This document shows, one piece after another, positions 4,300 to 62,465 of a stretch of 64,000 nucleotides of DNA. A model generated the notes under the pieces. That model did no database searches. It was given only the letters and a program-made list of their open reading frames with translations, and was not told where the DNA came from. A program made the position numbers and the translations under genes. Origin of the DNA: Bdellovibrionales bacterium (GTDB taxonomy: Bacteria; Bdellovibrionota; Bdellovibrionia; Bdellovibrionales; JAUICD01); contig OZ241865.1 in assembly GCA_965203275.1 (NCBI GenBank), forward strand, positions 2,400,001 through 2,464,000, written 5' to 3'. Position 1 is the first letter of the stretch. Every line of letters starts with the position of its first letter.

Positions 4300-5420
4300 T
4301 GTTTCTTTCACTAAAAGTGGTCTAGCCTCTGGCTACTTTTGGGCAATGACCGCAATGGCTTTCGCCATTGGCAAAATGGTCATTGCCTCAAAAGCCTGAC
4401 CACTTTTAGTAGGAAGGATCCTTTCCTCTTTTGACACAATGTTAAGGAAACAGAGTTTCATTTTTTTGTTTTTTTTATTCTCTTTTAGATTCTGCGTAAC
4501 TCTCAAAAAAACATGAATATTATGAGTGGGAGGCGGGGGCGGGCTGAAGGAGTTGTTTCACTAAAAGTAAACTAGCCGTCTTTTGCACTAAAAGTAAACT
4601 GACCTCTGGTCACTTTCTGGCGATGACCACGATGGCTTTCGCCATCGGTAAAATGGTCATCGCCTAGAAAGCCTGACCACTTTTAGTAGGAAGGATCCTT
4701 TCCTTTTTTGACACGATGTTAAGGAAAAAGTTTCATTTGTAGGCCTGGTTGCTCTTGAGGTAATAAAAGAAATTTTCCTTAACATGGTGTTAAGGGAGAT
4801 GGATATTCTGCCTACTCAAAATGAGCGGATTTTTGAGGCATTGCTCTTTTTGGACAGCGATAGCTGTCAGAGCAAACATCCGAAGGAAATCTTTTTCCTT
4901 AACATGCTGTTAAGAAATGAGGACATCCTTCTTCCTAAAATTGAACAAGCTTTTGAGGGAGTTAGCCTTTGATCGACGACGACAGTCGTCGGGCTAACTG
5001 CCCAAAAGTAGCCAGAGGCTAGTTCAATTTTAGGGAAACAGAGGTGTGGCTCATTTTGAGTGAAATGTTAAGGAAAAAGTTCCTTTATTGCATTGAGCTT
5101 GCTCTCCAAAAACATTTTAGAGGCATATCTTGTTTCCCTAACATGGTGTAGAGGAATAAAAGGATCCTTCTCTACTCAAAATAAATAGATTTTCTAGGCA
5201 GTTAGCCTTTGATCGACGGCGGTAGCCGTCGGGCTAACTGCCAGAAAACATGCCAGAGGCATGATTTATTTTGAGTGAAACAAAGAGCAAGCTCAATTGA
5301 GGACTTCGGAAGGCTCACACTGCCCTATCCTCAAGTAAAAACAAAATGAAAAAGCAGAATCAAGGGTGGGGGGTGGGGTTAGGGATCATCCTTCTGATGT
5401 CAGGATGCCGGATCCCAGAT
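4300..5420. repeat. Cluster 1 of structured ~150-nt repeat family (about 5 units plus accessory modules)
   Basis: Units at ~4303-4452, 4583-4730, 4773-4876 (partial), 4893-5039 and 5133-5281, in both orientations, with nested inverted repeats. Confidence 0.9.
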
Positions 5421-5626
5421 TATGCTCTTCTTCATTTAACAAACTGTGTTTTAAGCATTGACTTTGATGGTTTTAAACATAGAAAATAAAATGAGCTGTA
5501 CTAAACAAAAATATAATAATATTAAAGGGTTTACTTTAAACAATAAAATATTTCATCTTCAATAGGACTTTAATTTTTCAAATGATGGCCTTCAACATCA
5601 AATTTATAGGGAATATTTAAATTAAA

Positions 5627-6406
5627 ATGTCTATTATAATATTTACAATCCTTTTAGGGTCACTTGTGGGGATACTTTCTACTCTTTTGGGATTAGGAGG
5701 TGGGATTCTTTTTGTAACTTTTATACCTCTTTTATATGAAGGTATTGATCATAAAACAGCTATTGGTACAGCTCTTGCCAGTGTATTCTTTATTGTCTCA
5801 CTAAACACATTAAGATTTCATAAAAGAAAACTTGTCAGCTGGAATACTGTCTTTAAACTTACACCTGCTGCTTTAATCACAGCCTTTTTCGCTGGTAAGT
5901 TAGCACATGACATTCCAAATGAAATATTAATTTTATTCTTAGCTGGACTTCTAGGTTTTTTGTCCTTCTCATCTTTTATTAAAAAACCTAAGAGAACAAA
6001 ACCTGCTTCTTTTTTTAAAATTAACTTTTTAGGTATGTATGCAGGAGGCATTTCAGGTTTTACAGGCATTGGTTCTGGTGCTATAACAAGTACTTGCTTT
6101 TTGAATTGGAATCTTTTACCTAATTCAAAAGTATCCCCTACAAGCAATGCTGTTATGGTCATCACAAATTTATCAGGATTGATTGCTTACCTCAACTTAA
6201 AAGAAATATCTTTTGACTGGTCTATACAAATGGGTTACGTCAGATGGGATATTGCTCTTTCGCTTTTTTTGTCTTCATTTTTAACTGCTTTTTTTGGTGT
6301 GCGTTTTCAAAGCCATATTTCAGAAGATCAACGTCGCTTATCCATCGCTTATCTGCTTTTAATTTTATGTATTTATGAATGCTATCAGTTTTATCAATTT
6401 TTATAA
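5627..6406 (+). CDS. Sulfite exporter TauE/SafE family membrane protein
   Basis: GLGGG and GIGSG motifs in two halves, AIGTAL, ~8 hydrophobic segments. Confidence 0.85.
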   Translation: MSIIIFTILLGSLVGILSTLLGLGGGILFVTFIPLLYEGIDHKTAIGTALASVFFIVSLNTLRFHKRKLVSWNTVFKLTPAALITAFFAGKLAHDIPNEILILFLAGLLGFLSFSSFIKKPKRTKPASFFKINFLGMYAGGISGFTGIGSGAITSTCFLNWNLLPNSKVSPTSNAVMVITNLSGLIAYLNLKEISFDWSIQMGYVRWDIALSLFLSSFLTAFFGVRFQSHISEDQRRLSIAYLLLILCIYECYQFYQFL

Positions 6407-6668
6407 CAACACTATAACAACAAAAAAGCAACAAAGAAGAAGAACAGAGAAACAAACTTGGTAGTAACTAAAAGACCTAAGGCATAATGCATTTGTGAAA
6501 GCCCTGATACAAGCTAAAACAAAGTAACATTGACTTTGATAATATATATGAATAGAGTAATTATAGTTTTTTAATTTTATTAAGAATCTACAAAAGGACT
6601 TAATGTTGAAAACATTAATATTAACAACATCTATTCTATTACTCATTAGCTTTTAATTTTATATATTT

Positions 6669-19508: not shown

Positions 19509-19607
19509 TCACATAATCCTTTAATTTTAAAGTTTAAGCATGATAGAGCATAAAGGCCGCTTGCTACGTCCCGTATATTCTTATTAAATAGATAGTTATT
19601 GTGTCGC

Positions 19608-19763
19608 CTCTCTTAAGAGTCTTTTTACATCTTCTGAAATTAAAGATAAGGTGGGTGTTGGAACACCGACTCTCTTAAGAGTCTTTTTACATCTTCTGAA
19701 ATTAAAGATAAGGTGGGTGTTGGAACACCGACTCTCTTAAGAGTCTTTTTACATCTTCTGAAA
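19608..19763. repeat. 62-bp tandem duplication (2.5 units) at the ankyrin gene 3' end
   Basis: ctctcttaagagtctttttacatcttctgaaa at 19608, 19670 and 19732, separated by two identical 30-bp segments. Confidence 0.9.
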
Positions 19764-20691
19764 GTGTTCTCTCATAGTCTAAGATACTAAATCCAACATT
19801 GTCTTCAAGATCGACGTTAGCTCCGGCCGCTAGCAATGCCCTTACAACCTCTATATGGCCATAAAGACTAGCCAACACTAAAGCCGTCCGGCCTCTTTTG
19901 CTTTGATGATCGACGTCCGCACCATATTCTATCAATAATCTTACAATCTCTATATCGCCTTCACGACTAGCCCATATTAAAGCCGTCCTGCCTCTGTTGT
20001 CTTCAAGATTGACGTTAGCTCCATATTCTATCAATAACCTTGCAAGAGTTCTAAATTTATCATATTTAACAGCTCTTATTAAAGATATATCATCCACGTT
20101 GGCTCCGGCCGCTAGCAATGCCCTTACAATCTCAATATGGCCTTCATGACCAACCCACATTAAAGCCGTTTTGCCATTAATGGTTTGAAGATGGACGTTA
20201 GCTCCGGCATCTAGCAATACCCTTACAATCTCAATATGGCCATCAAAAGCAGCCCATATTAAAGCCGTCCAGCCAACACTGTCTCCAAGATCAACGTTAG
20301 CTCCGGCCGCTAGCAATGCCCTTACAACCTCTATATGGGCTTCATGACTAGCCCACATTAAAGCCGTCCAGCGATTGTCTTCACGATCAACGTTAGCTCC
20401 GGCCGCTAGCAATGCCCTTACAATCTCAATATGGCCATCAAAACTAGCATTTATTAAAGCCAGCCGGCCATCATTGCCTTGAAGATTGACGTTACCGTTT
20501 TCAATTAAACGTCTTACACAATTAAGATTGTTCCGTTTAACGCATTCTATTAATTCTCTTAGGTCTTCACTTTGCTGAATAACTTGATGTGTTCCTTCAA
20601 CCTTTTGTCCATTTTCTACTGTATTTTGAGTAGCTTCTGAATTTTGACATGCAATCATGGATAAAAATAAAGATAAAAATATATTTCTCAT
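19702..20691 (-). CDS. Secreted (probable lipoprotein) ankyrin-repeat protein
   Basis: About 7-8 G.TAL..AS..GH.E.VR.LL..GA.V repeats; leader MRNIFLSLFLSMIAC. Confidence 0.92.
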   Translation of the reverse strand: MRNIFLSLFLSMIACQNSEATQNTVENGQKVEGTHQVIQQSEDLRELIECVKRNNLNCVRRLIENGNVNLQGNDGRLALINASFDGHIEIVRALLAAGANVDREDNRWTALMWASHEAHIEVVRALLAAGANVDLGDSVGWTALIWAAFDGHIEIVRVLLDAGANVHLQTINGKTALMWVGHEGHIEIVRALLAAGANVDDISLIRAVKYDKFRTLARLLIEYGANVNLEDNRGRTALIWASREGDIEIVRLLIEYGADVDHQSKRGRTALVLASLYGHIEVVRALLAAGANVDLEDNVGFSILDYERTLSEDVKRLLRESVFQHPPYL

Positions 20692-20912
20692 TATTTGATA
20701 CTCCTTTTAAATTGGTTAAAATTTTTAAGTTAAATAACAATAAAGCACATACAAGGTTAAAGCCTTGATTAAAAAGGCTTTTTCTATGTTTTAGAAGTAA
20801 CCCTTGATAATTTTTGTAAAAATATCTTAATTTAGGGGCGAAGTCAAGCATTTTTAAGAATTAAGAAAAAAGTGAATAGGAACATCCTTAAGTAAGTTTT
20901 TTTAGATATACG

Positions 20913-21396
20913 ATGTTAAAGCTCATCAAGACCTCATTTTCACGATGGTTTGACATACTTTGGTCTACATGATAAGATAAATATAAAAATATAAGTTTAT
21001 GCAGAGGGTTAAAGCTTTTATTGATTTTTTAAAAGAATATATATATGGTGAGTGTATGAAAAAGAAAATAAGGGTTATTTTAGTATTTTTTCTATCTAAT
21101 GAGACATTTATTCTATGGCCTTGTCCTAAAGTCACATTCGATGGCATTAAACAATCAATGATGGATAAGTTAGAGAGAACGCTTATAACTTATTTTTTCC
21201 CTTTAATTGTTCCACTGACTCATCCTACCCTTTAAATCAGGTTAGTTCCGGCTGATTAAATCATCACACTTTCAGAACTTGTAAATGCCACTAAACTTCT
21301 TTATTAAAAAAACCGATAGATATTCTGACAGTCCAGTCCATGCCTAAACCTACAACTTGCCTGATAAATAAGAACATGGATGCATGAAAATAAAAC
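20913..21396. repeat. ~480-bp leader module, copy 1 (copy 2 at 27226-27707)
   Basis: Near-identical direct duplicate, each copy ending just before the RBS of a small gene. Contains TAAA-N16-ACCGATAG (sigma28-like) at 21292-21319. Confidence 0.9.
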
Positions 21397-21409
21397 CTAG
21401 GAGGATATT

Positions 21410-21727
21410 ATGAGTGATTTTTTTAAAAAAATAAGCTGGCCAAATTTTTTTATGTGGGGTGTTTTTGCTATTATTTCATGTTTGGTAGGGCTTGTATCTT
21501 ACCAATTATATGACAATATACCTAAACAGATTGAAGAGGTTAAGATTGATCTTAAAGAGGTTAAGGATGATCTTAGAGCAGATCTTATTAGAGAGATTGA
21601 TAAGCTAGATAAAGATATTAAAATACTTAACACTGACATTAAAGAGATGGATAAAAAGAATGATCGAAATTTTAAGGACATACTTTTGAGATTGCCACGG
21701 AATGAAATAGCATCTATTGATAAATGA
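21410..21727 (+). CDS. Small N-terminally membrane-anchored coiled-coil protein
   Basis: AGGAGG RBS, TM segment FFMWGVFAIISCLVGLV, heptad-like IEEVKIDLKEVKDDLR. Confidence 0.75.
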   Translation: MSDFFKKISWPNFFMWGVFAIISCLVGLVSYQLYDNIPKQIEEVKIDLKEVKDDLRADLIREIDKLDKDIKILNTDIKEMDKKNDRNFKDILLRLPRNEIASIDK

Positions 21728-21768
21728 TTGACTTATAAGTGGATATGAAAAGCAAAGTTTCCATATTA

Positions 21769-21797
21769 AAAGAGGCCCTTGTGGCCTCTTTTTTTTA
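21769..21797 (+). terminator. Rho-independent terminator (possibly bidirectional); duplicated at 28220-28249
   Basis: aaaagaggcc-cttgt-ggcctctttt followed by a T run. Confidence 0.8.
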
Positions 21798-21821
21798 TTT
21801 GAAATTTTCTTAAGATTTTAT

Positions 21822-21850
21822 TTGACAGGAGTGTATCAAACTGATACACT
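21822..21850 (+). promoter_or_regulatory. Sigma70-type promoter with embedded palindromic operator
   Basis: TTGACA-N17-TACACT; perfect 9-bp inverted repeat agtgtatca-aac-tgatacact at 21830-21850. Confidence 0.6.
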
Positions 21851-21865
21851 GATAGTAAGGGATAT

Positions 21866-21958
21866 ATGAGAATTTATATCTCTATTTTTTTATGCAAAGA
21901 ATGTACATTCGTTGCTAATTATTTGAGTGAGTTTTTTAACAAGTTTAAAAAAGCTTAA
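21866..21958 (+). CDS. Putative 30-aa peptide MRIYISIFLCKECTFVANYLSEFFNKFKKA
   Basis: Lies between the promoter above and a terminator at 21986-22021; TAAGGGA RBS-like sequence. Confidence 0.35.
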   Translation: MRIYISIFLCKECTFVANYLSEFFNKFKKA

Positions 21959-21985
21959 ATTAATCGTTAATTTTGAGTTTTTTTA

Positions 21986-22021
21986 GGGATGGGTTTTTGT
22001 GAGAAGCCCATCCTTTTTTTT
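21986..22021 (+). terminator. Rho-independent terminator
   Basis: ggatgggttt...aagcccatcc hairpin followed by a T run. Confidence 0.7.
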
Positions 22022-22352
22022 CTTTATCGGGTTTTATTAAGTTTTACTTTAATTTGTTAATTAATTAAAGTTAATTATACCAAACAAAAAAATAAAGTCA
22101 AGAATAAAGGCAAAAAAAAAGCTTGCAAAGTGGTTTTTAATAAGCACGGGTTATAGTTAGGGCCTGCCAGGGAGCCTGATCACAACACTAAACCACTATT
22201 TTTGATAAAATCTACTTATATATTTAAGTTCTATAGCCTTTTTTCAGATAAATAGGATGATAAACTTCCTTGTGAATTATAAAAAGACCGGCTTGAAAAG
22301 AGCATAAAGGCCGTTTGCTACGGCCTGTATATTCTTATTAAATAGATAATAG

Positions 22353-23276
22353 TTATTCTGCCGACTCTCTTAAGAGTCTTTTCACATCTTCTGAAAGTAC
22401 TCTCTCATAGTCTAAGATACTAAATCCAAAGTTGTCTTCAAGATCGATGTTAGCTCCGGCCTCTAGCAATGCCCTTACAACCTCAATATGGTCTTCAAAA
22501 CTAGCATACATTAAAGCCGTATAGCCATGCCTCTCTTGAAAATCGACGTCCGCACCGGCCGCTAGCAATGCCCTTACAGACTGCAAAAGTCCCTCACGAC
22601 TAGCATACATTAAAACTGTATAGCCGTTTCTGTCTGGAACATCGATGTTAGTACCCTCGTTAGCTACGGCAGCTCCGGCCACTAGCAATGCCCTTACAAC
22701 ACCAAAACAGCCTGCATTATGAGCCGACCATAAAGCTGTCTTGCCTTTTTGGTCTAGCATCTTGACATTAGCTCCGGCATCTAGCAATACCCTTACAACT
22801 TCAATATGGCATTCACGACTAGCATCAGTTAAAGCCGTATCGCCATTTAAAGCCCTTTCGCCAAAATCCGACCTGCCAATTTTTCTTTGAATATTGACGT
22901 CAGCACCGGCCACTATTAATGCCCTTACAACTTCAATATAGCCTCCAGAGCTAGCATCCATTAAAGCAGTATAGCCATAATAAGCTTGAAGATTGACGTT
23001 AGCTCCGGCTGCTAGCAATGCCCTTACAATCTCTATATGACCATATTGGCTTGCTAACATTAAAGCCGTATAGCCATTACTACTTTGATAATTGACGTTA
23101 GCACCTTTTTCTAGCAAATTCCTTATATCCTCTATATCGCCCCATTTAACAGCTTCTATGAAATCCTTATGGATATTTAGAGGTTCATCTCGATGAAAAT
23201 AAAGTTGTGTTCCTTCAACATTTTGACATACAACCATGGACAAAAATAAAAATATAGATATAAAAATATTTCTCAT
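22353..23276 (-). CDS. Secreted ankyrin-repeat protein
   Basis: About 7 ankyrin repeats; leader and upstream ~200 bp are shared with 19702..20691. Confidence 0.92.
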   Translation of the reverse strand: MRNIFISIFLFLSMVVCQNVEGTQLYFHRDEPLNIHKDFIEAVKWGDIEDIRNLLEKGANVNYQSSNGYTALMLASQYGHIEIVRALLAAGANVNLQAYYGYTALMDASSGGYIEVVRALIVAGADVNIQRKIGRSDFGERALNGDTALTDASRECHIEVVRVLLDAGANVKMLDQKGKTALWSAHNAGCFGVVRALLVAGAAVANEGTNIDVPDRNGYTVLMYASREGLLQSVRALLAAGADVDFQERHGYTALMYASFEDHIEVVRALLEAGANIDLEDNFGFSILDYERVLSEDVKRLLRESAE

Positions 23277-23687
23277 TGTTTGTTACTCCTTTTAAATGGG
23301 TTTAAATTTTTTTTAAGTTAAATAACAATAAAGTACATACAAGATTAAAACCTTGATTAAAAGGGCTTTTTCTATGTTTTAGAAGTAACCCTTGATAATT
23401 TTTGTAGTTGTATCTTATTTAGGGCCGAAGTCAAGCATTTTTAAGAATTAAGAAAAAAGTGAATAGGAACATCCTCTAAGTAAGTCTAAAGCCCTGCCGA
23501 TAGAGCTTGACGTATTTTGTCTACATTGACCAATTTTGTCTCCCATCAGAAAATCTATTTTACTTAACTTTAGTATTTATAAGGCTTTTAGTCTTTTAGA
23601 CAAAAAGTTAATTATGGCCTATACTTTGCAGGTATATACTTTAATATTATTTTTTTATTCCATAAAACTAAAAAACAAGGAGTTAAA

Positions 23688-24689
23688 GTGAGTATTAAAT
23701 TTTATAAAACCATATTGTTAGTTATATTTTGTTTATCTTTCATAAGTCCTATAAAATTGCAAGCCTATTGTCAATTTGAAGGATGCGGTGTTTCAAGCAA
23801 TTTAGATGAAGCACCTCTTACACTTCAAGAAGCTCAAGAAATAAAGGAATTCTACACGTCTGTTGAACGTGACTTATCAGACAACCTTGAGGTCTTACAA
23901 GATGGTACTTATCAAGTTAGGTTTTCAGACGACGTCATGGTTGCAATAACTTCTGGAGCTTTTTTCAGAGTAAAAGGAATGTTTGATAATAAAGTGACAA
24001 TTGTGGATGAAACACGGATTGAAGAAATAAGGCAGGACAGGATAAGAGACCGAGAGACTAAAGAGATTGTAAAACATGAATATGAAAGCGGTAATAAGCG
24101 TTTAAAAAAGCTTTTAAAAGAATACCCCCGTGTATCTATAGAAGAGACACCTGATAAAATGACCACTTATATTGATGGACCTAGAGGGAATTATCGCATT
24201 GGCATTTTTCGCAAATTAAAACTTTATCCTCAGGGATATGATGAACGTTACAATAACAGTACTTTACGCTTTTATCGTAAAGTTGGTGGGAAATGGATAA
24301 AAGCAACCCAGGATTTGGTGTCAACAGAAATGCATTTGTACTACCTTTTAAGTAAAGAAGACAAACATATAACTACAGCAATAAACTCATTACAGTCAAG
24401 AAGGGGTTTTAATAGGTATCTAAGAGCAAGGAATATCACGTGGCCCTTGAGTGTAAATAGACTTGTAAGAGCTGGCAGATTTGTAGGTCGATGGACCTTT
24501 CGAGCTGTTTTAGCTGGTGCGAGCATTGTAGGTGGTCAATTGCTTTTTGAACATGCTCAAGAGAATCACCCGGAAGAAACAGAGCTTGTTATAAATATCA
24601 CTAAAGAGCAATGGGAAATTTTGTCCACTAACGTAAGAGGCATCATCGAAGAGCTTTCTGAAAACGTCCTTAGTGAACTTGAATTATAA
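23688..24689 (+). CDS. Hypothetical secreted protein sharing its first ~38 aa with the ankyrin gene at 25358
   Basis: AAGGAG RBS, GTG start, leader ...SPIKLQAYCQFEGCG.SSN. Confidence 0.75.
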   Translation: MSIKFYKTILLVIFCLSFISPIKLQAYCQFEGCGVSSNLDEAPLTLQEAQEIKEFYTSVERDLSDNLEVLQDGTYQVRFSDDVMVAITSGAFFRVKGMFDNKVTIVDETRIEEIRQDRIRDRETKEIVKHEYESGNKRLKKLLKEYPRVSIEETPDKMTTYIDGPRGNYRIGIFRKLKLYPQGYDERYNNSTLRFYRKVGGKWIKATQDLVSTEMHLYYLLSKEDKHITTAINSLQSRRGFNRYLRARNITWPLSVNRLVRAGRFVGRWTFRAVLAGASIVGGQLLFEHAQENHPEETELVINITKEQWEILSTNVRGIIEELSENVLSELEL

Positions 24690-24787
24690 GTCCTTATAAT
24701 CATCCATTTATAGGTTTTATCCTTAAGCAAGTCTAAAGCCCGTCTTTAATTTTTCTAAACCCCTATATTTCCATAGTTTTTATAAGG

Positions 24788-25280
24788 AAATTTTTCCTTA
24801 ACATTTCACTCAAAATGCATCATGCCATCTTTTGCACTTGAAATGAACCACACCTCTGGTGTGTTTTTTGGTGTTGCCTGCAAAGGCTTTCGCCTTTGAC
24901 AAAATAGGCAACACCTAAAAAATCCATTCATTTCAAGTAAGAAAGGATATCCTTGCCACTTGACATCATGTTAAGGAAAATGTCCCTCTAATGGTAGTTA
25001 GCCCGACGGCTACCGCCGTCGATCAAAGGCTAACCGCCTCAAAAGCTTGTTCAATTTTAGGAAGAAGAATCTCTTCGTCTCTTGACCACATGTTAAGGAA
25101 AAAGTTCCTTCTTACACCTTGGGCAATGACCGCGTTTGTTTCACTAAAAATAAACCAGCCGTTTGTTTCACTAAAAGTGGTCAGGCTTTCTAGGTGATGA
25201 CCATTTTATCGACGGCGAAAGCCGTCGTGGTCATCGCCAGAAAGTGGCCAGAGGTCAGACCACTTTTAGTGAAAAAAGCG
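24788..25280. repeat. Cluster 2 of structured repeat family (~3 units)
   Basis: Units at ~24835-24980, 24995-25105 and 25168-25275. Confidence 0.9.
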
Positions 25281-25357
25281 GCTTGACTTTAGAAAGGTTA
25301 TGTGGTATATTTGCATTAAGTAAAATTATGTAACCCCTAAACAAAGAAGGAGTCAAA

Positions 25358-26044
25358 ATGAATATTAAGTTTTATCAAACCATGGTTTTAGTTGTATTTT
25401 GTTTATCTTTTCTAAGTCCTATAAAATTGCAAGCCTATTGTCAATTTGAAGGATGCGGTGATTCAAGCAATACGACTTTAATAAGTGCCATCCTTAGTGG
25501 AGATATAGAGGCTGTAAGGTCATCTCTAGCGAATGGAGCTGACGCCAATTATCAAGACAAATATAGTGGTTTTACGGCTTTAATGGGTGCTAGTGAGAAA
25601 GGCCATATAGATATTGTAAGGTTATTGCTAGAAAATGGTGCGGACGTCGATCTTTTAAAAGATTTTTATGGTAATACGGCTTTAATACATGCTAGTCGTG
25701 AAGGCCATATAGAAATTGTAAAGATATTGCTAGCGGCTGGTGCGGACGTCAATCATCAAAACAAAATAGGCAGGACGGCTTTATATTATGCTAGTTCTGA
25801 AGGCCATATAGATATTGTAAGGTTATTGCTAGAAAATGGTGCAGACGTTAATCATCAAGACAGTGGTGTTGGCTACACGGCTTTAATGATTGCTAGTTTT
25901 GAAGGACATATAGAGGTTGTAAGGGCATTGCTAGCGGCCGGAGCTAACGTTGATCCTGAAGACATTGCAGGATTGAGTATCTTAGACTATGAGGATTTTC
26001 TTTCAGAAGATGTGAAAAGACTTTTAAGAGAGTCGACAGAATAA
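25358..26044 (+). CDS. Secreted ankyrin-repeat protein
   Basis: About 5 ankyrin repeats; conserved C-cap SILDYE..LSEDVKRLLRES; AAGGAG RBS. Confidence 0.92.
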   Translation: MNIKFYQTMVLVVFCLSFLSPIKLQAYCQFEGCGDSSNTTLISAILSGDIEAVRSSLANGADANYQDKYSGFTALMGASEKGHIDIVRLLLENGADVDLLKDFYGNTALIHASREGHIEIVKILLAAGADVNHQNKIGRTALYYASSEGHIDIVRLLLENGADVNHQDSGVGYTALMIASFEGHIEVVRALLAAGANVDPEDIAGLSILDYEDFLSEDVKRLLRESTE

Positions 26045-26379: not shown

Positions 26380-27215
26380 CCTTGTTTCCTTAACATTTCA
26401 CTCAAAATGAACTGGCCTCTGGCTACTTTTGAGCTGGATCTTCAATTTATTTCTTAAATTTCAAAATCATTTCCCTGAGACCAGACTCTTTCCCATTCAT
26501 ATCATTAGCTTTTACAACCTTTCATCTTATTTGGCTTTGAAATTCTGTGCTTACAAATAAAAAATCTGGATGCGAATGGTAATGGGCAATCAGCCCGACG
26601 GCTCACGCCGTCGTAAAAAGCTGGCTACCTCAAAAGCTTGTTCATTTTGAGTAGAGGAGGATCTCCTCATTCTCTACACCATGTTAGGGAAACAAGGTAT
26701 GCTTCTAAAATGTTTTTAGGGAGCAAACGGATTGCAAATAAAACACTTTTTCCTTAACATGGTGTTAAAAAACGAAGGGATCCTCCCTACTAAAAGTGGT
26801 CAAGCTTTCTAGGCAATGACCATTTTATCGACGGCGAGAGCCTTTGCAGGCAACACTCAAGGTGTAAGAAGGAACTTTTTCCTTAACATGTAGTTATGAG
26901 ACGAGGAGATCCTCCCTTACTAAAAGTAAACGGACTTTTGAGGTAGCCAGCCTTGATGAAGGAACTTTTTCCTTAACATTGTGTTAAAAAAGGAAAGGAT
27001 CTTTCCTACTAAAAATAAACGGATTTTTGAGGTATTGCTCTTTTTGGACAGCGTAAGCTGTCAGAGCAATGCCCAAAAACAGCCAGAGGCTGGTTTATTT
27101 TTAGTGAAAAAGATAAGAAGGCGAATAGCCTTCGGCTGGCTACCCAAAAGTGACCAGAGGTCAGTTTACTTTTAGTGAAACAGAGGTCAGTTCAATTTTA
27201 GGGAAAACAACGGCT
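26380..27215. repeat. Cluster 3 of structured repeat family (~5 full/partial units, one with a ~160-bp insertion)
   Basis: gtttccYtaacat ends and covarying stems. The insert at 26432-26590 recurs inverted at 60843-61000. Confidence 0.9.
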
Positions 27216-27225: not shown

Positions 27226-27707
27226 ATGTTAAAGCTCATCAAGACCTTATTTTCACGATGGTTTGACATACTTTGGTCTACATGATAAGATAAATATAAG
27301 TTTATGCAGGGGGTTAAAGCTTTTATTGATTTTTTAAAAGAATATATATATGGTGAGTGTATGAAAAAGAAAATAAGGGTTATTTTAGTATTAGTATTTT
27401 TTCTATCTAATGAGACATTTATTCTATGGCCTTGTCCTAAAGTCACATTCGATGGCATTAAACAATCAATGATGGATAAGTTAGAGAGAACGCTTATAAC
27501 TTATTTTTTCCCTTTAATTGTTCCACTGACTCATCCTACCATTTAAATCAGGTTAGTTCCGGCTGATTAAATCATCACACTTTCAGAATTTGTAAATGCC
27601 ACTAAACTTCTTTATTAAAAAAACCGATAGATATTCTGACAGTCCAGTCCATGCCTAAACCTACAACTTGCCTGATAAATAAGAACATGGATGCATGAAA
27701 ATAAAAC
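27226..27707. repeat. ~480-bp leader module, copy 2
   Basis: Near-identical to 20913-21396 apart from small indels. Confidence 0.9.
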
Positions 27708-37304: not shown

Positions 37305-38377
37305 TGAATAAATTAGAAAAATCTATGCTAGAGTTTTTAAAACAAAATCAAGCAGAAGTAGCTACACCGGGATTGGTTTTAAGAGTTTATCGTAAAAGAA
37401 GAAAATGCATCGATATAGTATATGGAAAAACTTCTTGTTTTTATGATATTGCTTCTATTACAAAAGTCATGTTGACAATGACACGATTAATGATGCTTAG
37501 AAAAGATAAATTGTTTAATGAAACCAGTCAGATTCAAAAAGTCATACCTTGGTTTAAAGCAGGTTACTCTTTTGAGAGATTGTTAGCACATCAATCAGGA
37601 GCTATTGCATGGAAGCCTTATTTTAAAAAGATGTCCCTTAAGGCTTCGAGACAGGAGCGGTGGCTTTGGTTGCAAAAACAATTAAGAGCAGAGACTTCTT
37701 TTCAAAAATCTTTTTCAAAAGTAAGGACATCTATTTATAGTGATGTTGGGTTTTTGCTTTTAGGGGTTGCTCTGGAATACTTAGAAAGTCAAAGTTTATT
37801 GCACTCTTGGCAAAAAGTTCAAGAGGCATTCAAACTTCAAAAGACACATTTTAATATTGATCATACTCTAAAGTATAAGGTGTCAAAATATGCTCCTACT
37901 GAAAAATGTGCTTGGAGGAAAAAGCAATTACAAGGTCAAGTCAGTGATGAAAATGCTTATGCTTTAGGCGGTGTAGCACCTCATGCGGGGCTTTTTAGTA
38001 CGATAGACGATGTTTCCTCTTGGATATTGCAATTGAGGGATATATTTTATGGGAAGGTTTCTAAATTTATTGATCAAAGTACATTAAAAAAGTTTACTCA
38101 AACAAGCAGATCTGATGTAGATTTTGCTTTGGGTTTTATGAAGCCTTGTTTTCCAAGAGTAGTTAGTCAAAAAAAAGTCAATAGCTGTGGGCAGTATTTT
38201 TCTCGTCATTCGTTTGGACACACAGGTTTTTCAGGAACTTCTGTCTGGTTTGATCCTCGAAAAGACATTATTATAGTTTTATTATCTAACAGGATTTGCC
38301 CTAATAGAGATAATAAAAAATTTGTGACTTTACGCCCTTTGCTCCATGACTACATTGTCATGCAACTCACCTCTTAA
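37301..38377 (+). CDS. Serine hydrolase, beta-lactamase class C/AmpH family
   Basis: ASITK (SxxK), LLAHQSG, YSD, HAGLFS, FGHTGFSG; ATGA overlap with ldcA. Confidence 0.88.
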   Translation: MMNKLEKSMLEFLKQNQAEVATPGLVLRVYRKRRKCIDIVYGKTSCFYDIASITKVMLTMTRLMMLRKDKLFNETSQIQKVIPWFKAGYSFERLLAHQSGAIAWKPYFKKMSLKASRQERWLWLQKQLRAETSFQKSFSKVRTSIYSDVGFLLLGVALEYLESQSLLHSWQKVQEAFKLQKTHFNIDHTLKYKVSKYAPTEKCAWRKKQLQGQVSDENAYALGGVAPHAGLFSTIDDVSSWILQLRDIFYGKVSKFIDQSTLKKFTQTSRSDVDFALGFMKPCFPRVVSQKKVNSCGQYFSRHSFGHTGFSGTSVWFDPRKDIIIVLLSNRICPNRDNKKFVTLRPLLHDYIVMQLTS

Positions 38378-41376: not shown

Positions 41377-41652
41377 ATGGATATGGATCAAGTATTAAAA
41401 GAAATGAGAGACATCAATAAAAAAGTCACTCAAAGTTTAGAAAACCAAAAAGAAATTCAAAAAAACCAGGCAGAGTTTAAGAAAGACCAAGCAGAGTTTA
41501 AAAAAGACCAAGTAGAGTTTAAGAAAAAACAAGACGAGATGGAAGCAAGGCTTGCAAATCAAGAAGAAACGACCAAGCACACAAATAAATTGGTATTAGC
41601 TATAAAAAAAAACTGGATTATACAAACCCTGATGGGTCAAAAGGCCGGCTAA
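41377..41652 (+). CDS. Tandem coiled-coil protein copy 1 (extends to 41723 if -1 shifted at A9 41604-41612)
   Basis: TAAGGAGG RBS; repeated (N/D)Q(A/V)EFKK heptads. Confidence 0.8.
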   Translation: MDMDQVLKEMRDINKKVTQSLENQKEIQKNQAEFKKDQAEFKKDQVEFKKKQDEMEARLANQEETTKHTNKLVLAIKKNWIIQTLMGQKAG

Positions 41653-41746
41653 GCAATTTTATTTTTCAATTAATTCAGTGGCTTTTAAGACTTTTTATAG
41701 CAATAGGATTTAACCATAAATAAACTAACTTTTAAGGAGGTCTCAA

Positions 41747-42040
41747 ATGGATGATCAATTATTAAAAGAAATGAGAGACATCAGTAAAAAAGTCACTCAA
41801 AGTTTAGAAAACCAAAAAGAAATTCAAAAAAACCAGGTGGAATTTAAGGAAAACCAGGCGGAGTTTAAGAAAAACCAGGTGGAGTTAAAAGAAAGCCAGG
41901 CAGAGTTTAAGAAAAAACAAGACGAGATGGAATCAAGGCTTGCAGATCAAGAAGAAACGACCAAGCACACAAATAAATTGGTATTGGCTATAAAAAAAAA
42001 CTGGATTATACAAACCCTGATGGGTCAAAAGGCCGGCTAA
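41747..42040 (+). CDS. Tandem coiled-coil protein copy 2 (extends to 42111 if -1 shifted at A9 41992-42000)
   Basis: As copy 1; longest heptad array. Confidence 0.8.
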   Translation: MDDQLLKEMRDISKKVTQSLENQKEIQKNQVEFKENQAEFKKNQVELKESQAEFKKKQDEMESRLADQEETTKHTNKLVLAIKKNWIIQTLMGQKAG

Positions 42041-42134
42041 GCAATTTTATTTTTCAATTAATTCAGTGGCTTTTAAGACTTTTTATAGCAATAGGATTTA
42101 ACCATAAATAGACTAACTTTTAAGGAGGCTTCAA

Positions 42135-42386
42135 ATGGATGATCAATTATTAAAAGAAATGAGAGACATCAATAAAAAAGTCACTCAGAGTTTAGAAAAT
42201 CAAAAAGAAATTCAAAAAAACCAGGCGGAGTTTAAAAAAGACCAAGTAGAATTTAAGAAAAAACAAGACGAGATGGAAGCAAGGCTTGCAGATCAAGAAG
42301 AAACGACCAAGCACACAAATAAATTGGTATTGGCTATAAAAAAAAACTGGATTATACAAACCCTGATGGGTCAAAAGGCCGGCTAA
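42135..42386 (+). CDS. Tandem coiled-coil protein copy 3 (extends to 42457 if -1 shifted at A9 42338-42346)
   Basis: As copy 1. Confidence 0.8.
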   Translation: MDDQLLKEMRDINKKVTQSLENQKEIQKNQAEFKKDQVEFKKKQDEMEARLADQEETTKHTNKLVLAIKKNWIIQTLMGQKAG

Positions 42387-42480
42387 GCAATTTTATTTTT
42401 CAATTAATTCAGTGGCTTTTAAGACTTTTTATAGCAATAGGATTTAACCATAAATAGACTAACTTTTAAGGAGGCTTCAA

Positions 42481-42711
42481 ATGGATGATCAATTATTAAA
42501 AGAAATGAGAGACATCAATAAAAAAGTCACTCAGAGTCTGGAAAATCAAAAAGAAATTCAAAAAAACCAGGTGGAATTTAAGAAAAAGCAAGACGAGATG
42601 GAATCAAGGCTTGCAGATCAAGAAGAAACGACCAAGCACACAAATAAATTGGTATTGGCTATAAAAAAAAACTGGATTATACAAACCCTGATGGGTCAAA
42701 AGGCCGGCTAA
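42481..42711 (+). CDS. Tandem coiled-coil protein copy 4 (extends to 42782 if -1 shifted at A9 42663-42671)
   Basis: As copy 1; shortest heptad array. Confidence 0.8.
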   Translation: MDDQLLKEMRDINKKVTQSLENQKEIQKNQVEFKKKQDEMESRLADQEETTKHTNKLVLAIKKNWIIQTLMGQKAG

Positions 42712-42841
42712 GCAATTTTATTTTTCAATTAATTCAGTGGCTTTTAAGACTTTTTATAGCAATAGGATTTAACCATAAATAAAATAAGGCATTTTGAATA
42801 AAAAAGCATGTCGCCGGCAAACAAATTATAATATTCCATCA

Positions 42842-45712: not shown

Positions 45713-46069
45713 TTGAGGAAATGGAAAACTTCAAAAATGTTTTTTTATATAAGATGTATTTGCTTAGCATTGCTTATCTCTATTAGTTTATACTCTGTCA
45801 AAATAGAGAAGGTCAGGCTTTCTCATAAAATACATGGATACATCGAGCAAACACCTGTTGGTTTATATTTGAATCAAATGGCTCAATTTGGAATCCATTA
45901 CACTCAAAAAACTTTTAAAAAAATATACACTGATAACAAAAAAGAACTTATGGAACGTCTTTCTCATAAAGTAAAAAAAGCAATCCAAAGAACTCATCAA
46001 CACCTTGAACTTGAAAAAAAGGATCATCAAGAAGGAACAAAGCCCAATCCTAGCCCGGTGGCTCACTAA
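45713..46069 (+). CDS. Hypothetical small membrane-anchored protein
   Basis: N-terminal hydrophobic segment; its stop lies at the edge of repeat cluster 4. Start uncertain. Confidence 0.5.
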   Translation: MRKWKTSKMFFYIRCICLALLISISLYSVKIEKVRLSHKIHGYIEQTPVGLYLNQMAQFGIHYTQKTFKKIYTDNKKELMERLSHKVKKAIQRTHQHLELEKKDHQEGTKPNPSPVAH

Positions 46070-46280
46070 AAGTAGCCAGAGGCTAGACCACTTTTAGTGA
46101 GACAAAAGAAGCATATCTTGTTTCCCTAACATGGTGTCAGAAGCAAGGAGATCCGCCCTACTCAAAATGCATAGATTTTTGAGGCAATGACCATTTTGTC
46201 AATGGCGAAAGCCATTGCGGTCATTGCCCAAAAACATGCCAGAGGCATGATGCATTTTGAGTGAAATGTTAAGGAAACAG
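46064..46280. repeat. Cluster 4: one complete structured repeat unit with terminal inverted repeats plus a partial unit
   Basis: gtttccctaacat (~46120) ... atgttaaggaaac (~46278) enclosing the full nested fold. Confidence 0.9.
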
Positions 46281-50128: not shown

Positions 50129-50139
50129 TACGTCTCCTT

Positions 50140-51455
50140 TGTTTCACTAAAAGTAAACTGACCTCTGTTTCCCTAAAATTGAACTAGCCTCTGGCTACTT
50201 TTGGGCAGTTAGCCCGACGGCTATCGCCGTCGATCAAAGGCTAACTGCCTCAAAAGCTTGTTCAATTTTAGGAAGGAGGATCCTCTCGTCTCTTTACACG
50301 ATGTTAAGGAAAAAGTTCCTTCTTACATCTTTTGCCTGCAAAGGCTTTCGCCTTTGACAAAATAGGCAACACCTAAAAAATCCGCTCATTTTGAGTAGGG
50401 AAGGATCCTCTCGTTTCTTAACATGATGTTAGGGAAACAAGATATTCGCTTCATCCTTGCCTGTCTGTTTGATGCCGGGGTGCCAAATCCCGGATCCCGG
50501 AAAAGTATCCTTTCATTTCTTTATACCATGTTAAGGAAACAAAGCATTCGTTTTTTTGTTTTTTTTATTCTTTTTTAGATTCTGCGTAATTTTCAAAAAA
50601 GCATGAATATTATGAGTGGGAGGCGGAGGCAGGCTGTAGGAGTTGTTTCTACTCAAAGTGAACAGGCTTTTGAGGCAATGACCATTTTGTCAAAGGCGAA
50701 AGCCGTCGGGCTAAATGGTATTAGAAGGATGTTTTCCTTAACATGGTGTTAAGAAACGAAGAGATCCTCCCTACTCAAAGTGAACAGGCTTTTGAGGCAA
50801 TGACCATTTTGTCAAAGGCGAAAGCCTTTGCGGTCATTGTCCAAAAGTGGCCAGAGGCCAGTTCACTTTGAGTGAAACAACTATCCCTAACCCCACCCGC
50901 CACCCTTCGATTCTGCTTTCTCATTTTGTTTTTACTGGAGGATGAGGGCAGAGGGAGCCTTCCGAAGTCCTCAATTGAGCTTGCTTTTAAGGAGCAAGCT
51001 CAATTTGCGGAAGATCTCCAGTCTCCCTCTGCCCCCATCCTCCCCTAAATGATTTTTTATTTGAGAGTTACGCAGAATCTGAGAAAAAATAAAAAAAAAG
51101 GAACTTTTTCCTTAACATGTAGTAAAAAGACAAGGAGATCCTCCTTCCTAAAAGTGAACAGGCTTTTGAGACAATGACCATTTTGTCAAAGGCGAAAGCC
51201 TTTGCGGTCATTGTCCAAAAGTGGCCAGAGGCCAGTTCACTTTGAGTGAAACAGCTTAGCCTTTGATCGACGACGATAAGCCGTCGAGCTAACTATTAGA
51301 AGGACATTTTCCTTAACATGGTGTTAAGAAACGAAGAGATCCTCCCTACTCAAAGTGAACAGGCTTTTGAGACAATGACCATTTTGTCAAAGGCGAAAGC
51401 CTTTGCGGTCATTGTCCAAAAGTGGCCAGAGGCCAGTTCATTTTGAGTGAAACAA
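50140..51455. repeat. Cluster 5 (largest) of structured repeat family, ~7 full/partial units plus accessory modules
   Basis: Three near-identical units at ~50733-50878, 51107-51253 and 51308-51453; other variants at 50168-50312 and 50335-50440. Confidence 0.92.
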
Positions 51456-51478
51456 CAATGTAAATATGTTTTTATTTC

Positions 51479-51769
51479 TTACTTCTTTTGAATATGACAC
51501 AAGGCGACATCCACAGATGTTCTTGTACCTTTCTCTGTGTTGCATTTATGGCAAGCAACGACCACATTAGATTTTGAAGAAAGCCCTCCTTTTGCTAAAG
51601 GAACCTTATGATCCATTGTAAGATGTTTTGCAGTAAAATGTTTTCCACAATAATAACATTGGCCTTTTTTGAGTTTCCATTGCCACCACTTAGAAGCTTT
51701 TAATTGCTTAGCTTTGAGGCGTTCTTTTTGAAGTTGCCACTTTGGTTGTGGTGCATAAAACAAAGTCAT
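51479..51769 (-). CDS. Small HNH endonuclease
   Basis: CYYCG, TMDHKVPLAKGG, NVVVACHKCN..K. Confidence 0.9.
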   Translation of the reverse strand: MTLFYAPQPKWQLQKERLKAKQLKASKWWQWKLKKGQCYYCGKHFTAKHLTMDHKVPLAKGGLSSKSNVVVACHKCNTEKGTRTSVDVALCHIQKK

Positions 51770-60479: not shown

Positions 60480-61037
60480 TTTTCACTCAAAATAAATCAT
60501 GCCTCTGGCATGTTTTCTGGCAGTTAGCCCGACGGCTACCGCCGTCATCAAAGGCTAACTGCCTAGAAAATCCATTTATTTTGAGTAGAGGAGGATCCTT
60601 TTATTCCTCTACACTATGTTAAGGAAAAAGTGTTTTTATTGTCTTAGGAGCAAGCGGGTTTACAAATGAGGAACTTTTTCCTTAACATTGTGTTTATCCG
60701 AGATCTGGGATCTGGGATCCGGCATCTAAATGAACTTTTTCCTTAACATGCAGTAAAAAAATGAAGAGATCCTTCTTCCTAAAATTGAACAAGCTTTTGA
60801 GGTAGCCAGCCTTTGATCGACGGCGATAGCCTTCGGGCTGGTTGTCCATTACCATTCGCATCCAGATTTTTTATTTGTAAGCACAGAATTTCAAAGCCAA
60901 ATGAGTAAAAAGTGATAAAAACTAATGATATAAATGGGAAAGAGTCTGGTCTCAGGGCAATGATTTTGAAATTTAAGAAATAAATTGAAGATCCAGCTCA
61001 AAAGTGACCAGAGGTCAGTTTACTTTTAGTGAAACAG
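60480..61037. repeat. Cluster 6 of structured repeat family (2 units, one with the ~160-bp insertion)
   Basis: Units at ~60481-60628 and 60737-61036; GGATC-rich module at ~60697-60728. Confidence 0.9.
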
Positions 61038-61287
61038 ATAAAAGGCTCAACAATATATACAACAAAAATTATATATTTAGGATGTTATGCAGTGAGTTTC
61101 TGACCGATCTCCTCAAAGTTGACCTTTCAATTCTCTGAAAGAGGCTTGATCTGGTGAATGCATGAAATTAGAGATCATAGATTCAAAGAAAGGAAACTTT
61201 GAGGGAAACAGTTCACGTATCTCTGAAAGAGGTACGTACGGGTAGATGAAGATCAACGAAGTTAGATAATAAAAGGCTCAAATATCA

Positions 61288-61821
61288 ATGATGGATTTTA
61301 AATTAGAAAAACTTTTTTGGATTGATCTTGAAATGACAGGTTTAGATCCTGAAAGAGAAGTGATCATTGAGGTGGCAGCTATTATTACAGATTTGCAATT
61401 TAAAGAGCTGGATCAATATCATACTGTTGTGAAACAGCCTCAGATATTTTTAGATCAAATGGACCATTGGAATAAAAAAACACATACAGATACAGGCTTA
61501 ATTGATAAAGTGGTGCAGGGCAGGCAACCTAATAAAGTCGAAGATGATCTTATTCAACTTTGCCGTAAGCATTTTAACCCTAAAGAGGTTATTATTGCAG
61601 GCAATTCCATTCATCAAGATAGATTGTTTTTAAATAAATACTTTCCTCAATTCAGTGATATGTTAAATTATCGTATGTTAGATGTTTCTGCTTGGAAGAT
61701 TGTCTTTTATAGTAAATTTAAACAGGCATTTGAAAAGCAAAATAAGCATCAAGCATTAGATGATATTAGAGAGAGCATCAAAGAACTGAAATTTTATACA
61801 GACTTCGTTTCAAAAACTTAA
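61288..61821 (+). CDS. orn: Oligoribonuclease
   Basis: WIDLEMTGLD, GNSIHQDR.FL, YR.LDVS, HQALDDIRESI.EL.FY. Confidence 0.96.
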   Translation: MMDFKLEKLFWIDLEMTGLDPEREVIIEVAAIITDLQFKELDQYHTVVKQPQIFLDQMDHWNKKTHTDTGLIDKVVQGRQPNKVEDDLIQLCRKHFNPKEVIIAGNSIHQDRLFLNKYFPQFSDMLNYRMLDVSAWKIVFYSKFKQAFEKQNKHQALDDIRESIKELKFYTDFVSKT

Positions 61822-61894
61822 ATTGTATTATAATACTGTCAGTCAAGAGGATATTTTATTTTTCCCAGACCATCAAACAAGCGGATCAAACGGC

Positions 61895-62465
61895 AGTCGG
61901 GCAATCCAGCATCAGGTATCAGAAGGAACTCCCCAACCCCACCCGCCACCCTTTGATTCTGCTTTTCTATTTTGTTTTTATTTGAGGATAGGACAGTGGG
62001 AGCCTTCCGAAGTCCTCAATTGAGCTTGCTTTTAAGGAGCAAGCTCAATTTGCGGAAGATCTTCAGTCTCCCACTGCCCCATCCTTCTCCCTAATTACTT
62101 CTTTTTTGAAAGTTACGCAGAATCTAAAAAAGAATAAAAAAACAAAAAAACGAAATTCTTTTTCCTTAACATCGTGTCAAAAGAGGAAAGGATCCTCCCC
62201 TACTCAAAATAAATGGATTTTCTAGGCAGTTAGCCTTTGATCGACGACGATAGTCGTCGGGCTAACTGCCAGAAAACATGCCAGAGGCATGATGCATTTT
62301 GAGTGAAATGTTAAGGAAACAAGATATTTATATTTATATTTATATTTATATTTATTTCACTCCCGGGATCCGGGATCAGGCAATCTGGCATCCCGGGATC
62401 TGGGACCTGATGCCGGGTTGCCGGATCCCAGATCCCGGATAGATACAATGTTAGGGAAACAAGGT
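61895..62465. repeat. Cluster 7: accessory modules, one complete unit (62161-62320), (TATTTA)5 microsatellite and GGATCC-rich hairpin
   Basis: Modules match 50880-51100 and 5285-5390; microsatellite at 62325-62354. Confidence 0.88.

What the first reader, a model, noticed from the sequence alone, without database searches (positions are those of the whole stretch)
4300..62465. Family of ~150-nt repeats with a conserved three-way-junction fold and extensive compensatory covariation
About 20 full or partial units sit in seven intergenic clusters (4.3-5.4, 24.8-25.3, 26.4-27.2, 46.1-46.3, 50.1-51.5, 60.5-61.0, 61.9-62.5 kb). Architecture, read as at 5133-5281 (+): ttccYtaacat - purine run - GATCC - P1 - P2 - P3 - T-rich bulge - P4 hairpin - P3' - P2' - P5 hairpin - P1' - gaaa. 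Stem sequences change between copies while pairing is kept. P1: actcaaaataaat/atttattttgagt, cctaaaattgaac/gttcaattttagg, actaaaagtggtc/gaccacttttagt, acttgaaatgaa/ttcatttcaagt, actcaaagtgaac/gttcactttgagt. P3: ggcagttagcc, ggcaatgacc, ggcgatgacc, ggtgttgcct, ttgctc. P4: cgacggc, cgacgac, caatggc, cgatggc, caaaggc, gacagc. P5: catgcc, tagcc, tggcc, tgacc, cagcc, cacacc, always closing an AGA loop. Such covariation within one genome implies selection on a single-stranded fold rather than on sequence (inference). Some units also have ~13-bp terminal inverted repeats (gtttccYtaacat). I do not recognise the family, and no mobilising enzyme is encoded in the window.
Basis: partly seen in the sequence, partly recalled or inferred. 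Interest (0 to 1): 0.88.

Follow-up and report, generated by a model that had tools for sequence, protein, structure and literature searches.

The report
Folded selfish repeat, copied by break-priming
A 150-base non-coding DNA unit that keeps a three-armed hairpin fold fills about 6% of this uncultured Bdellovibrio-like bacterium's genome, and its landing scars (lost or long duplicated host DNA) suggest it is copied into DNA breaks rather than moved by a known transposase.

Summary
In detail: 23 units (13 near full length) in seven clusters here; 1,462 profile hits (742 near full length) genome-wide. Covariation holds: 32 of 42 pairs change on both sides, and allele linkage follows helix nesting, not distance. 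No Rfam match. Found only in this genus among 146 order and 150 phylum genomes sampled. Earlier scan notes describe the same family elsewhere in this genome. Tested here: 37 filled/empty site pairs show 5-100 bp of target lost (23) or target duplicated (14), with no fixed TSD and no target consensus, unlike DDE MITEs and precise HUH insertion. No Y1, IS110, TnpB or RT was found. The strongest gene link is Rpn/YhgA nucleases (45 of 48 ORFs within 300 nt, background 23%), but a relative has Rpn without the element. Best model (0.45): a broken host end switches onto the element's A-rich 3' tail, copies it and switches back. DNA versus RNA template is open, since a sister genome's loops are mostly GNRA. 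The TIRs are a minority fusion form. New variant of small structured bacterial repeats; enzyme not shown.

The parts
4303..4450 (-). full unit, followed by stacked 3' tail fragments towards 4300
4583..4727 (-). full unit
4774..4884 (+). 5' partial unit (model 1-113), cut off by the leader of the next unit (self-insertion)
4894..5039 (+). full unit, followed by a P5-loop tail and an inverted 5' motif
24832..25275 (.). cluster: full unit (-) 24832-24979, 5' partial (-) 24992-25101, 3' partial (+) 25165-25275
26380..27206 (.). cluster: (-) 26577-26692; conserved divergent spacer; (+) 26749-26857, 26878-26954, 26968-27109, 27117-27181 and a tail
46056..46278 (+). tail fragment, then a full unit 46121-46266 carrying the inverted 5' motif at its 3' end (minority TIR-like form)
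50134..51456 (.). cluster: (-) 50167-50312, 50333-50437; (+) 50646-50716, 50733-50878, 51107-51252, 51308-51453; second hairpin repeat at 50963-51016
60480..61035 (.). cluster: (-) 60480-60627; spacer; 5' stub and heptamer run 60706-60726; (+) 60738-60854 interrupted by an unrelated insert; 3' remnant to 61035
62008..62465 (.). second hairpin repeat 62008-62061; full unit (+) 62161-62308 with inverted 5' motif; heptamer runs 62364-62437

Best explanation
A non-autonomous selfish repeat that spreads by break-primed 'copy-in', not cut-and-paste. A 3'-OH end at a nick, break or stalled fork leaves its template, anneals by a few bases to the short A-rich tail beyond the foot of P1 of a folded single-stranded copy, is extended through the unit to a point roughly 8-28 nt past the invariant TTCCYTAACAT motif, and returns to the host template. 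Returning upstream of the exit point loses target DNA; returning downstream duplicates it. Landing in older copies gives the stacked tails, the truncated 5' halves and the mosaic stems. The fold and the 5' motif would set donor choice and end points. The most likely polymerase is a host DNA polymerase, and the best candidate break-maker is the expanded Rpn/YhgA nuclease family. Shown: fold, abundance, mobility, junction scars, self-insertion, Rpn proximity. Inferred: priming, polarity, DNA template, any role of Rpn.
For: 37 distinct filled/empty pairs: 23 lost 5-100 bp, 14 had duplicated target, none had a fixed short TSD; a separate search found one clean insertion without loss or TSD. Direct duplications of 43-96 bp flank 5 of 85 isolated units (inverted control 1), and of 83 and 52 bp in L184 and L006. 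In 95 distinct 3' junctions the tail reads AAACA(A/G), target identity starts mostly 5-9 nt after the P1 foot, and there is no target consensus. 222 of 250 5'-only partials are followed within 45 nt by a new same-strand 5' motif (median leader 20 nt). Stacked tails join at the P5 loop through a 4-nt linker in most of 119 cases. Mobility: units sit inside two CRISPR arrays, break four-helix-bundle and Rpn genes, lie between rpsQ and rplN in L006 where G000 is empty, and different alleles occupy the orthologous mutY site in L100 and L195. Rpn: 57 profile matches in G000 and 43 in G001; 45 of 48 Rpn ORFs have a unit within 300 nt against 329 of 1,433 background ORFs, IS256 2 of 9, IS1634 1 of 6; 19 units per 10 kb within 1 kb of intact Rpn genes against 3.4-4.5 elsewhere. 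E. coli RpnA is a non-specific endonuclease whose 3'-OH products prime polymerase and were proposed to allow primer-template switching (PMC5350276, passages).
Against: No enzyme is shown to act on the unit. G003 has 20 Rpn matches, yet no unit in 11 fetched Rpn regions or by covariance model. Rpn subfamilies have no fixed position, orientation or stem allele next to them, only 53 of 401 clusters adjoin an Rpn ORF, and many Rpn ORFs are fragments broken by the unit, so they may simply be tolerated targets. Other multicopy genes are enriched too (four-helix bundle 9 of 9, pilin-like 22 of 34). RpnA showed no preference for nicked or cruciform DNA. 'Empty' sites are paralogues at 85% identity or more, not true pre-insertion alleles; some duplications may be later tandem duplications, and their lengths are inflated by arrays. 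Plain template switching does not explain the invariant 5' motif or the near-fixed P5-loop junction. In G001, 24 of 30 G..A tetraloops are GNRA and only 9 of 30 close with C-G, which is more RNA-like.
Confidence: 0.45

Rival explanations
1. RNA intermediate: the unit is transcribed, trimmed to a short tail beyond P1 and inserted by target-primed reverse transcription, like a bacterial SINE, by an RT that G000 has lost or that escapes detection; the Avd-like four-helix-bundle protein could assist.
For: Variable loss or duplication, a tight A-rich 3' end and a looser 5' end are also what target-primed reverse transcription leaves (established knowledge of non-LTR elements, recalled). G001 loops are mostly GNRA with U-A or U-G closings. 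G-T outnumbers A-C 277 to 137 on the + strand. G001 has three RT matches. Four-helix-bundle genes: 14 in G000, 19 in G001, 0 in G002 and G003.
Against: No RVT_1 candidate in G000 and no tblastn hit with three G001 RT proteins, although G000 has many near-identical young copies. 231 of 625 common G000 tetraloops are GNYA, all closed by C-G, the DNA mini-hairpin pattern (PMC13037366, search listing). G-T pairs are only about 1% of cells. The tail is partly inherited, not added afresh (MI 0.52 against 0.18 shuffled). No orientation bias in co-oriented gene pairs (206 same, 188 opposite). G004's large contigs hold most of its 19 four-helix-bundle genes without this unit.
Confidence: 0.2
2. A dedicated but undetected ssDNA transposase (HUH-like or other) recognises the 5' motif and the fold, as RAYT does for REPINs; the ragged scars come from later repair and recombination.
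For: Invariant TTCCYTAACAT in all three organisms. Recurrent joints at the P5 loop and at the CA of the 5' motif (88 joins to a P1 foot). Divergent pairs (100) far outnumber convergent ones (13), with a conserved 53-63 nt spacer in most of 116 cases. The whole proteome was not screened and G000 is 90% complete.
Against: No Y1_Tnp in G000 (control rang in 6 of 14 genomes), no tblastn hit with the G001 Y1, no IS110, no TnpB-sized protein. HUH insertion is precise, whereas none of the 37 pairs is. No replichore bias evident (skew is weak). Tandem neighbours (253) and singlets are common.
Confidence: 0.2
3. A host-functional structured element (transcript stabiliser, terminator, protein or nucleoid site) spread passively by ectopic recombination, with stems kept perfect by quasi-palindrome correction.
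For: Never inside long ORFs; 3' ends face the flanking genes (same orientation as an adjacent gene start in 120 of 142 cases). Template switching can maintain stems.
Against: Positions are not conserved between sister organisms. It disrupts genes and CRISPR arrays. It is confined to one genus among those searched. Copy number differs several-fold between two congeners (240 motif copies in G001, about 1,300 in G000).
Confidence: 0.1

Closest known systems
REP / REPIN / BIME repeats with RAYT (Y1 HUH) transposases (PMC3116915, passages read)
   Same: Hundreds of extragenic, hairpin-forming, clustered copies on both strands; non-autonomous; inverted pairs with a conserved spacer occur.
   Different: The unit is a 150-nt three-way junction, not a short palindrome; singlets insert alone; no RAYT in G000; insertions lose or duplicate target DNA.
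bcr1 of the Bacillus cereus group (PMC3184786, passages read)
   Same: About 155 bp, branched fold kept by compensatory changes, non-conserved positions, no transposase inside.
   Different: bcr1 has 5-bp direct repeats in each case and is transcribed; here there is no fixed TSD, stems are mosaic, copies nest in each other, and transcription is untested.
DDE-mobilised MITEs (RUP, Correia, IMU; PMC3184786, passages)
   Same: Size, intergenic location, high copy number.
   Different: A TIR-like end only in a minority; no fixed TSD; the ends of the genome's IS256 and IS1634 elements do not match.
Rpn/YhgA-like nuclease-promoted RecA-independent recombination (PMC5350276, passages read)
   Same: Non-specific 3'-OH breaks that prime polymerase and template switching would give the scars seen; Rpn genes are expanded and adjoin units.
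   Different: The passages read mention no structured repeat as a substrate ('palindrom' 0 occurrences); the link here is positional only.
Integron attC sites; non-LTR SINEs (both recalled, no call)
   Same: attC: long imperfect hairpin with extrahelical bases, conserved in structure not sequence. SINE: variable target loss or duplication and an A-rich 3' end.
   Different: No cassette arrays and no evident IntI; no RT in G000.

Membership tests
REP/REPIN-RAYT | RAYT (Y1_Tnp) gene in the genome, flanked by the repeat | tested here: not met
   0 matches in G000; G001's single Y1 (L015) is IS200-like and had no unit hit in its locus
REP/REPIN-RAYT | repetitive, extragenic, palindromic | tested here: met
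   411 clusters, 0 inside long ORFs; fold
REP/REPIN-RAYT | inverted doublet is the replicative unit | tested here: inconclusive
   divergent 100, convergent 13, tandem 253 neighbours; single units insert alone
DDE MITE | terminal inverted repeats at both ends | tested here: not met
   89 of 1,438 3' termini; 74 units with both ends
DDE MITE | fixed short target-site duplication | tested here: not met
   0 of 37 filled/empty pairs
DDE MITE | IS with matching ends in the genome | tested here: not met
   IS256 and IS1634 ends differ; other DDE families were not searched by profile
IS200/IS605 derivatives (PATE, omega-RNA) | TnpA or TnpB present; precise insertion next to a short target motif | tested here: not met
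   (only a 1,365-aa frame)
IS91/Helitron-like rolling circle | Y2 transposase | tested here: inconclusive
   0 of 5 genomes, but the control rang nowhere
Integron attC | IntI integrase | tested here: inconclusive
   two tyrosine recombinases in G000 (307 and 187 aa) look Xer-like by eye and have counterparts in G001; no IntI profile was run
Integron attC | co-oriented ORF-attC arrays with GTT/AAC boxes paired in the stem | tested here: not met
   dispersed, both strands; the AAC-N5-GT motif lies outside the covarying helices
bcr1-type repeats | about 155 bp, branched fold with compensatory changes | tested here: met
bcr1-type repeats | 5-bp flanking direct repeats | tested here: not met
Retroelement-dependent repeat (SINE-like, DGR, retron) | reverse transcriptase available | tested here: not met
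   none in G000; three matches in G001
Retroelement-dependent repeat (SINE-like, DGR, retron) | discrete RNA copy | not testable with these tools
   no RNA holder listed
Rfam families | match at gathering score | tested here: not met

The most novel reading that the evidence does not exclude
A transposase-free and RT-free bacterial mobile element: a 150-nt DNA whose own fold and terminal motif make it a preferred template for polymerase switching at breaks, fed by an expanded Rpn/YhgA nuclease family. It would be a DNA-level analogue of a SINE, would give the 'putative transposase' Rpn family a first mobilised substrate, and would offer a testable route for other orphan bacterial repeats.
Probability: 0.25. 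Interest if true: 0.85.

Novelty: new variant of a known kind. Interest (0 to 1): 0.62.

Why it matters
How orphan structured repeats multiply in bacteria without a cognate transposase is an open question. This family offers more than 700 full copies, mix-and-match helices and dozens of readable junctions whose scars fit neither DDE nor precise HUH insertion. It makes two hypotheses testable: break-primed copy-in with Rpn nucleases, and an RNA route. It is also a clear case in which strong covariation may not mean a functional RNA. If the cause proves to be an undetected ordinary transposase, it is one more, unusually elaborate, REP-like family.

Tried and rejected
Enzyme searches that gave no candidate: Y1_Tnp, RVT_1 (13) and tblastn with three RT proteins and one Y1 protein of G001 (59), IS110 (53), TnpB zinc ribbon (65), GIY-YIG (one UvrC-sized frame per genome; 60), DUF559 (one; 61), AEP primase (98), IS91 Y2 (52, control silent). 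HNH: the 96-aa gene at 51479-51769 has a syntenic counterpart on a G004 large contig without the unit. A composition-filtered list of 236 basic soluble ORFs was read by eye (output partly cut); nothing stood out, and it was not profile-scanned. Hairpin targeting of foreign DNA: rejected; 62 target sites fold no better than flanks (-2.9 against -2.9 to -3.3 kcal/mol), although both CRISPR insertions lie at repeat hairpins. A helix between the 5' flank and the 3' tail: no covariation. Four-helix-bundle gene as obligate partner: the apparent 3-of-3 match fails because G004's units lie only on small contigs C1, C4 and C11, and C4 is 88-91% identical to G001 against 64% for a G004 large contig, so probably misbinned; the gene has its own heptamer cassette and is often broken by the unit. 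Rpn subfamily versus stem allele: no pairing. XerD-arm and integron 7-5-7 likeness of the 5' motif (recalled consensus): partial only. No RNA holder listed; this says nothing on expression. Logan contigs showed no empty allele. Literature: searches returned no paper; some searches returned listings, none describing this family; subscription papers and supplements were not seen. No structure or complex prediction was run.
Full report
Setting. The window is G000:C1:2400001-2464000 of a 2.57-Mb, 35% GC, single-contig genome rated 90% complete. Its ATP synthase beta subunit is closest (82%) to Bdellovibrionales MAGs. A related strain is present in a sponge metagenome run that was laid on the window (X8; cover in 30 of 30 bins, pieces with several percent differences).

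Observation. The seven clusters are real: 23 hits over 30 bits, 13 near full length. A profile from nine window copies finds 1,462 hits genome-wide (748 +, 714 -), 742 near full length, in 411 clusters covering 6.0% of the genome, none inside a long ORF. Short-read contigs give the element bins about 100 times single-copy depth (X3). The only Rfam match in the window is RNase P RNA; relaxed scanning of one cluster gave sub-threshold unrelated hits.

Anatomy, read on the + strand of 5133-5281. A variable leader; the invariant TTCCYTAACAT-N3-GT motif; a purine run; then P1 (13 bp), a 3-nt bulge, a three-way junction with P5 (AGA loop in 674 of 703), P2, one bulged A, P3, a T-rich bulge and P4 with a G..A loop; then an A-rich tail. 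On 37 copies from three organisms, 32 of 42 pairs change on both sides and 0 of 500 shuffles reach the covariation score. In 665 distinct G000 copies each helix has about 7-8 alleles that recombine into 91 haplotypes. Linkage follows nesting rather than distance (P1 5' with P1 3' 0.64; P1 5' with P4 0.29), and 81% of copies keep the diagnostic P1 columns paired against 17% expected under independence. Pairs are nearly all Watson-Crick (21,760; G-T 277; A-C 137). So the fold shapes the family, but selection cannot be separated from template-switch repair of stems (bioRxiv 2021.04.15.439925, abstract and outline).

DNA or RNA. In G000 the P4 loop is closed by C-G and 231 of 625 common tetraloops are GNYA, matching the GCGNNAGC DNA mini-hairpin (PMC13037366, search listing). 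No RNA run was listed. The question stays open.

Distribution. A covariance model matches G000, G001 and G004 among 146 order-level genomes and only G000 among 151 drawn from the phylum. The 5' motif occurs 240 times in G001, 6 times in G004 and 0 times in G002 and G003. G004's matches lie on small contigs C1, C4 and C11; C4 is 88-91% identical to G001 while a G004 large contig is 64%, so these contigs are probably misbinned and the family is best read as confined to one genus among those searched.

Mobility and scars. Units sit in two CRISPR arrays, interrupt four-helix-bundle and Rpn genes, and lie between rpsQ and rplN in L006 where G000 is empty; at the orthologous mutY site L100 and L195 carry different alleles at the same junction. 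Of 763 3' ends queried, 141 had an element-free paralogous flank, giving 95 distinct events. The tail reads AAACA(A/G), target identity starts mostly 5-9 nt after the P1 foot, and there is no target consensus. Targets are not enriched for hairpins (62 sites). Of 147 junctions with an empty paralogue, 45 allowed both sides to be placed, 37 after collapsing: 23 lost 5-100 bp and 14 duplicated target, 11 of them at or near the 25-bp cap of the test. Duplications of 43-96 bp flank 5 of 85 isolated units, and 83 and 52 bp in L184 and L006. One clean insertion without TSD was seen. Self-insertion is the rule: 222 of 250 5'-only partials are followed by a new leader and 5' motif, and stacked tails start at the P5 loop (119 cases). 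Neighbouring full units are tandem 253, divergent 100, convergent 13; most of 116 divergent pairs share a 53-63 nt spacer. The TIR-like form follows 89 of 1,438 3' termini and looks like a 3' end fused to another copy's 5' arm; the examples printed show no flanking direct repeat. Caveat: the empty sites are paralogues, and some duplications may postdate insertion.

Enzymes. None of 51 window ORFs scanned is a transposase, recombinase or RT. G000 lacks Y1_Tnp, RVT_1, IS110, TnpB-sized and AEP matches. Its two tyrosine recombinases look Xer-like by eye. IS256 and IS1634 have unrelated ends, and IS256 has landed inside units. Two gene families adjoin units. Four-helix-bundle genes (TIGR02436; 14, 19, 0, 0, 19 in G000-G004) are 9 of 9 adjacent, but they have their own heptamer cassette, are often broken by the unit, and on G004's large contigs sit beside a different structured repeat. 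Rpn/YhgA genes (TIGR01784; 57, 43, 0, 20, 3) are 45 of 48 adjacent against 23% background, 16 of 19 among long ones, with 4-5 times the unit density within 1 kb. Against a dedicated partnership: G003 has Rpn without units, there is no fixed geometry or allele pairing, and only 53 of 401 clusters adjoin Rpn. The proteome was not fully screened.

Mechanism. Leaving the host template at one point and returning at another gives variable loss or duplication without a fixed TSD, which is what is seen. I therefore favour break-primed copy-in by two template switches (0.45), entering at the single-stranded tail and leaving just past the 5' motif. RpnA makes non-specific 3'-OH ends that prime polymerase (PMC5350276, passages), which makes Rpn the best candidate break source, on positional evidence only. 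Target-primed reverse transcription would leave similar scars but no RT is found in G000 (0.2). An undetected dedicated ssDNA transposase explains the invariant motif and recurrent joints better, but not the ragged scars (0.2). A host function is least likely (0.1).

Comparison. It works like REPINs (PMC3116915, passages) and bcr1 (PMC3184786, passages) as an abundant structured intergenic repeat, but fails their defining tests (RAYT; 5-bp direct repeats) and those of MITEs. Nine literature searches showed no description of this family; subscription papers and supplements were not seen. Earlier notes of this scan describe the same family in other windows of this genome, with the enzyme unknown; they are not independent support.

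Verdict. Real; an undescribed family; a new variant of a known kind, with junction scars that point away from known transposases. Interest 0.62.

Noticed in passing
window 63618-63990 (-): RNase P RNA, class A.
   Followed up: no
window 50963-51016, 62008-62061, 5299; L002, L006, L100, L195: A second structured repeat with its own covarying hairpin (about 60 copies in G000; longer form in G001 and G004 small contigs); often a target of the main unit and a likely source of the divergent spacer.
   Followed up: partly
window 5404-5417, 60706-60726, 62364-62437: GGGATCY-type heptamer runs; 394 strand-counted runs in G000, 183 followed within 60 nt by a unit's 5' end; they also flank four-helix-bundle genes.
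   Followed up: partly
L198, L201, L208, L213, L218 (G004 large contigs): A different structured repeat beginning AAGGTCTTCC, with a C(GAA)G hairpin, next to four-helix-bundle/heptamer cassettes; no hit to this family's profile.
   Followed up: partly
G004 contigs C1, C4, C11: Probably misbinned from a G001-like organism: C4 is 88-91% identical to G001 against 64% for a large contig.
   Followed up: partly
window 19702-26044 and 62866-63375: Four ankyrin-repeat genes with shared flanks and 62-nt repeats at 19605-19790; G000 has a large ankyrin-type family.
   Followed up: no
window 41377-42820; 21080-21379 and 27391-27690: Four tandem copies of about 350 bp carrying small ORFs without Pfam match, and a 99% identical 300-bp duplication.
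   Followed up: no
window 51479-51769 (-): 96-aa HNH gene converging on a unit; a syntenic counterpart exists on a G004 large contig without the unit.
   Followed up: partly
window 36372-38377: LD-carboxypeptidase (S66) followed by a beta-lactamase-family (PF00144) gene; function not examined.
   Followed up: no
G000:C1 242-246 kb, 369-370 kb, 1990-1996 kb, 2266-2269 kb: Several CRISPR loci (Cas12a-sized frame, Cas9-Cas1-Cas2, two further arrays; types judged by eye); the unit has invaded two arrays.
   Followed up: partly
G000:C1 952-958 kb, 1478-1486 kb, 1490-1492 kb: Two four-gene loci ending in a SNF2-HNH protein (Zorya-like, recalled label) and a nucleotidyltransferase-patatin pair (CBASS-like, recalled label); not scanned.
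   Followed up: no
L170, L176, L182, L184 (G001): A roughly 10-kb segment repeated at least four times, each with a head-to-tail array of the unit (231-bp period); L002 has a 56-bp array of the 5' end alone.
   Followed up: partly
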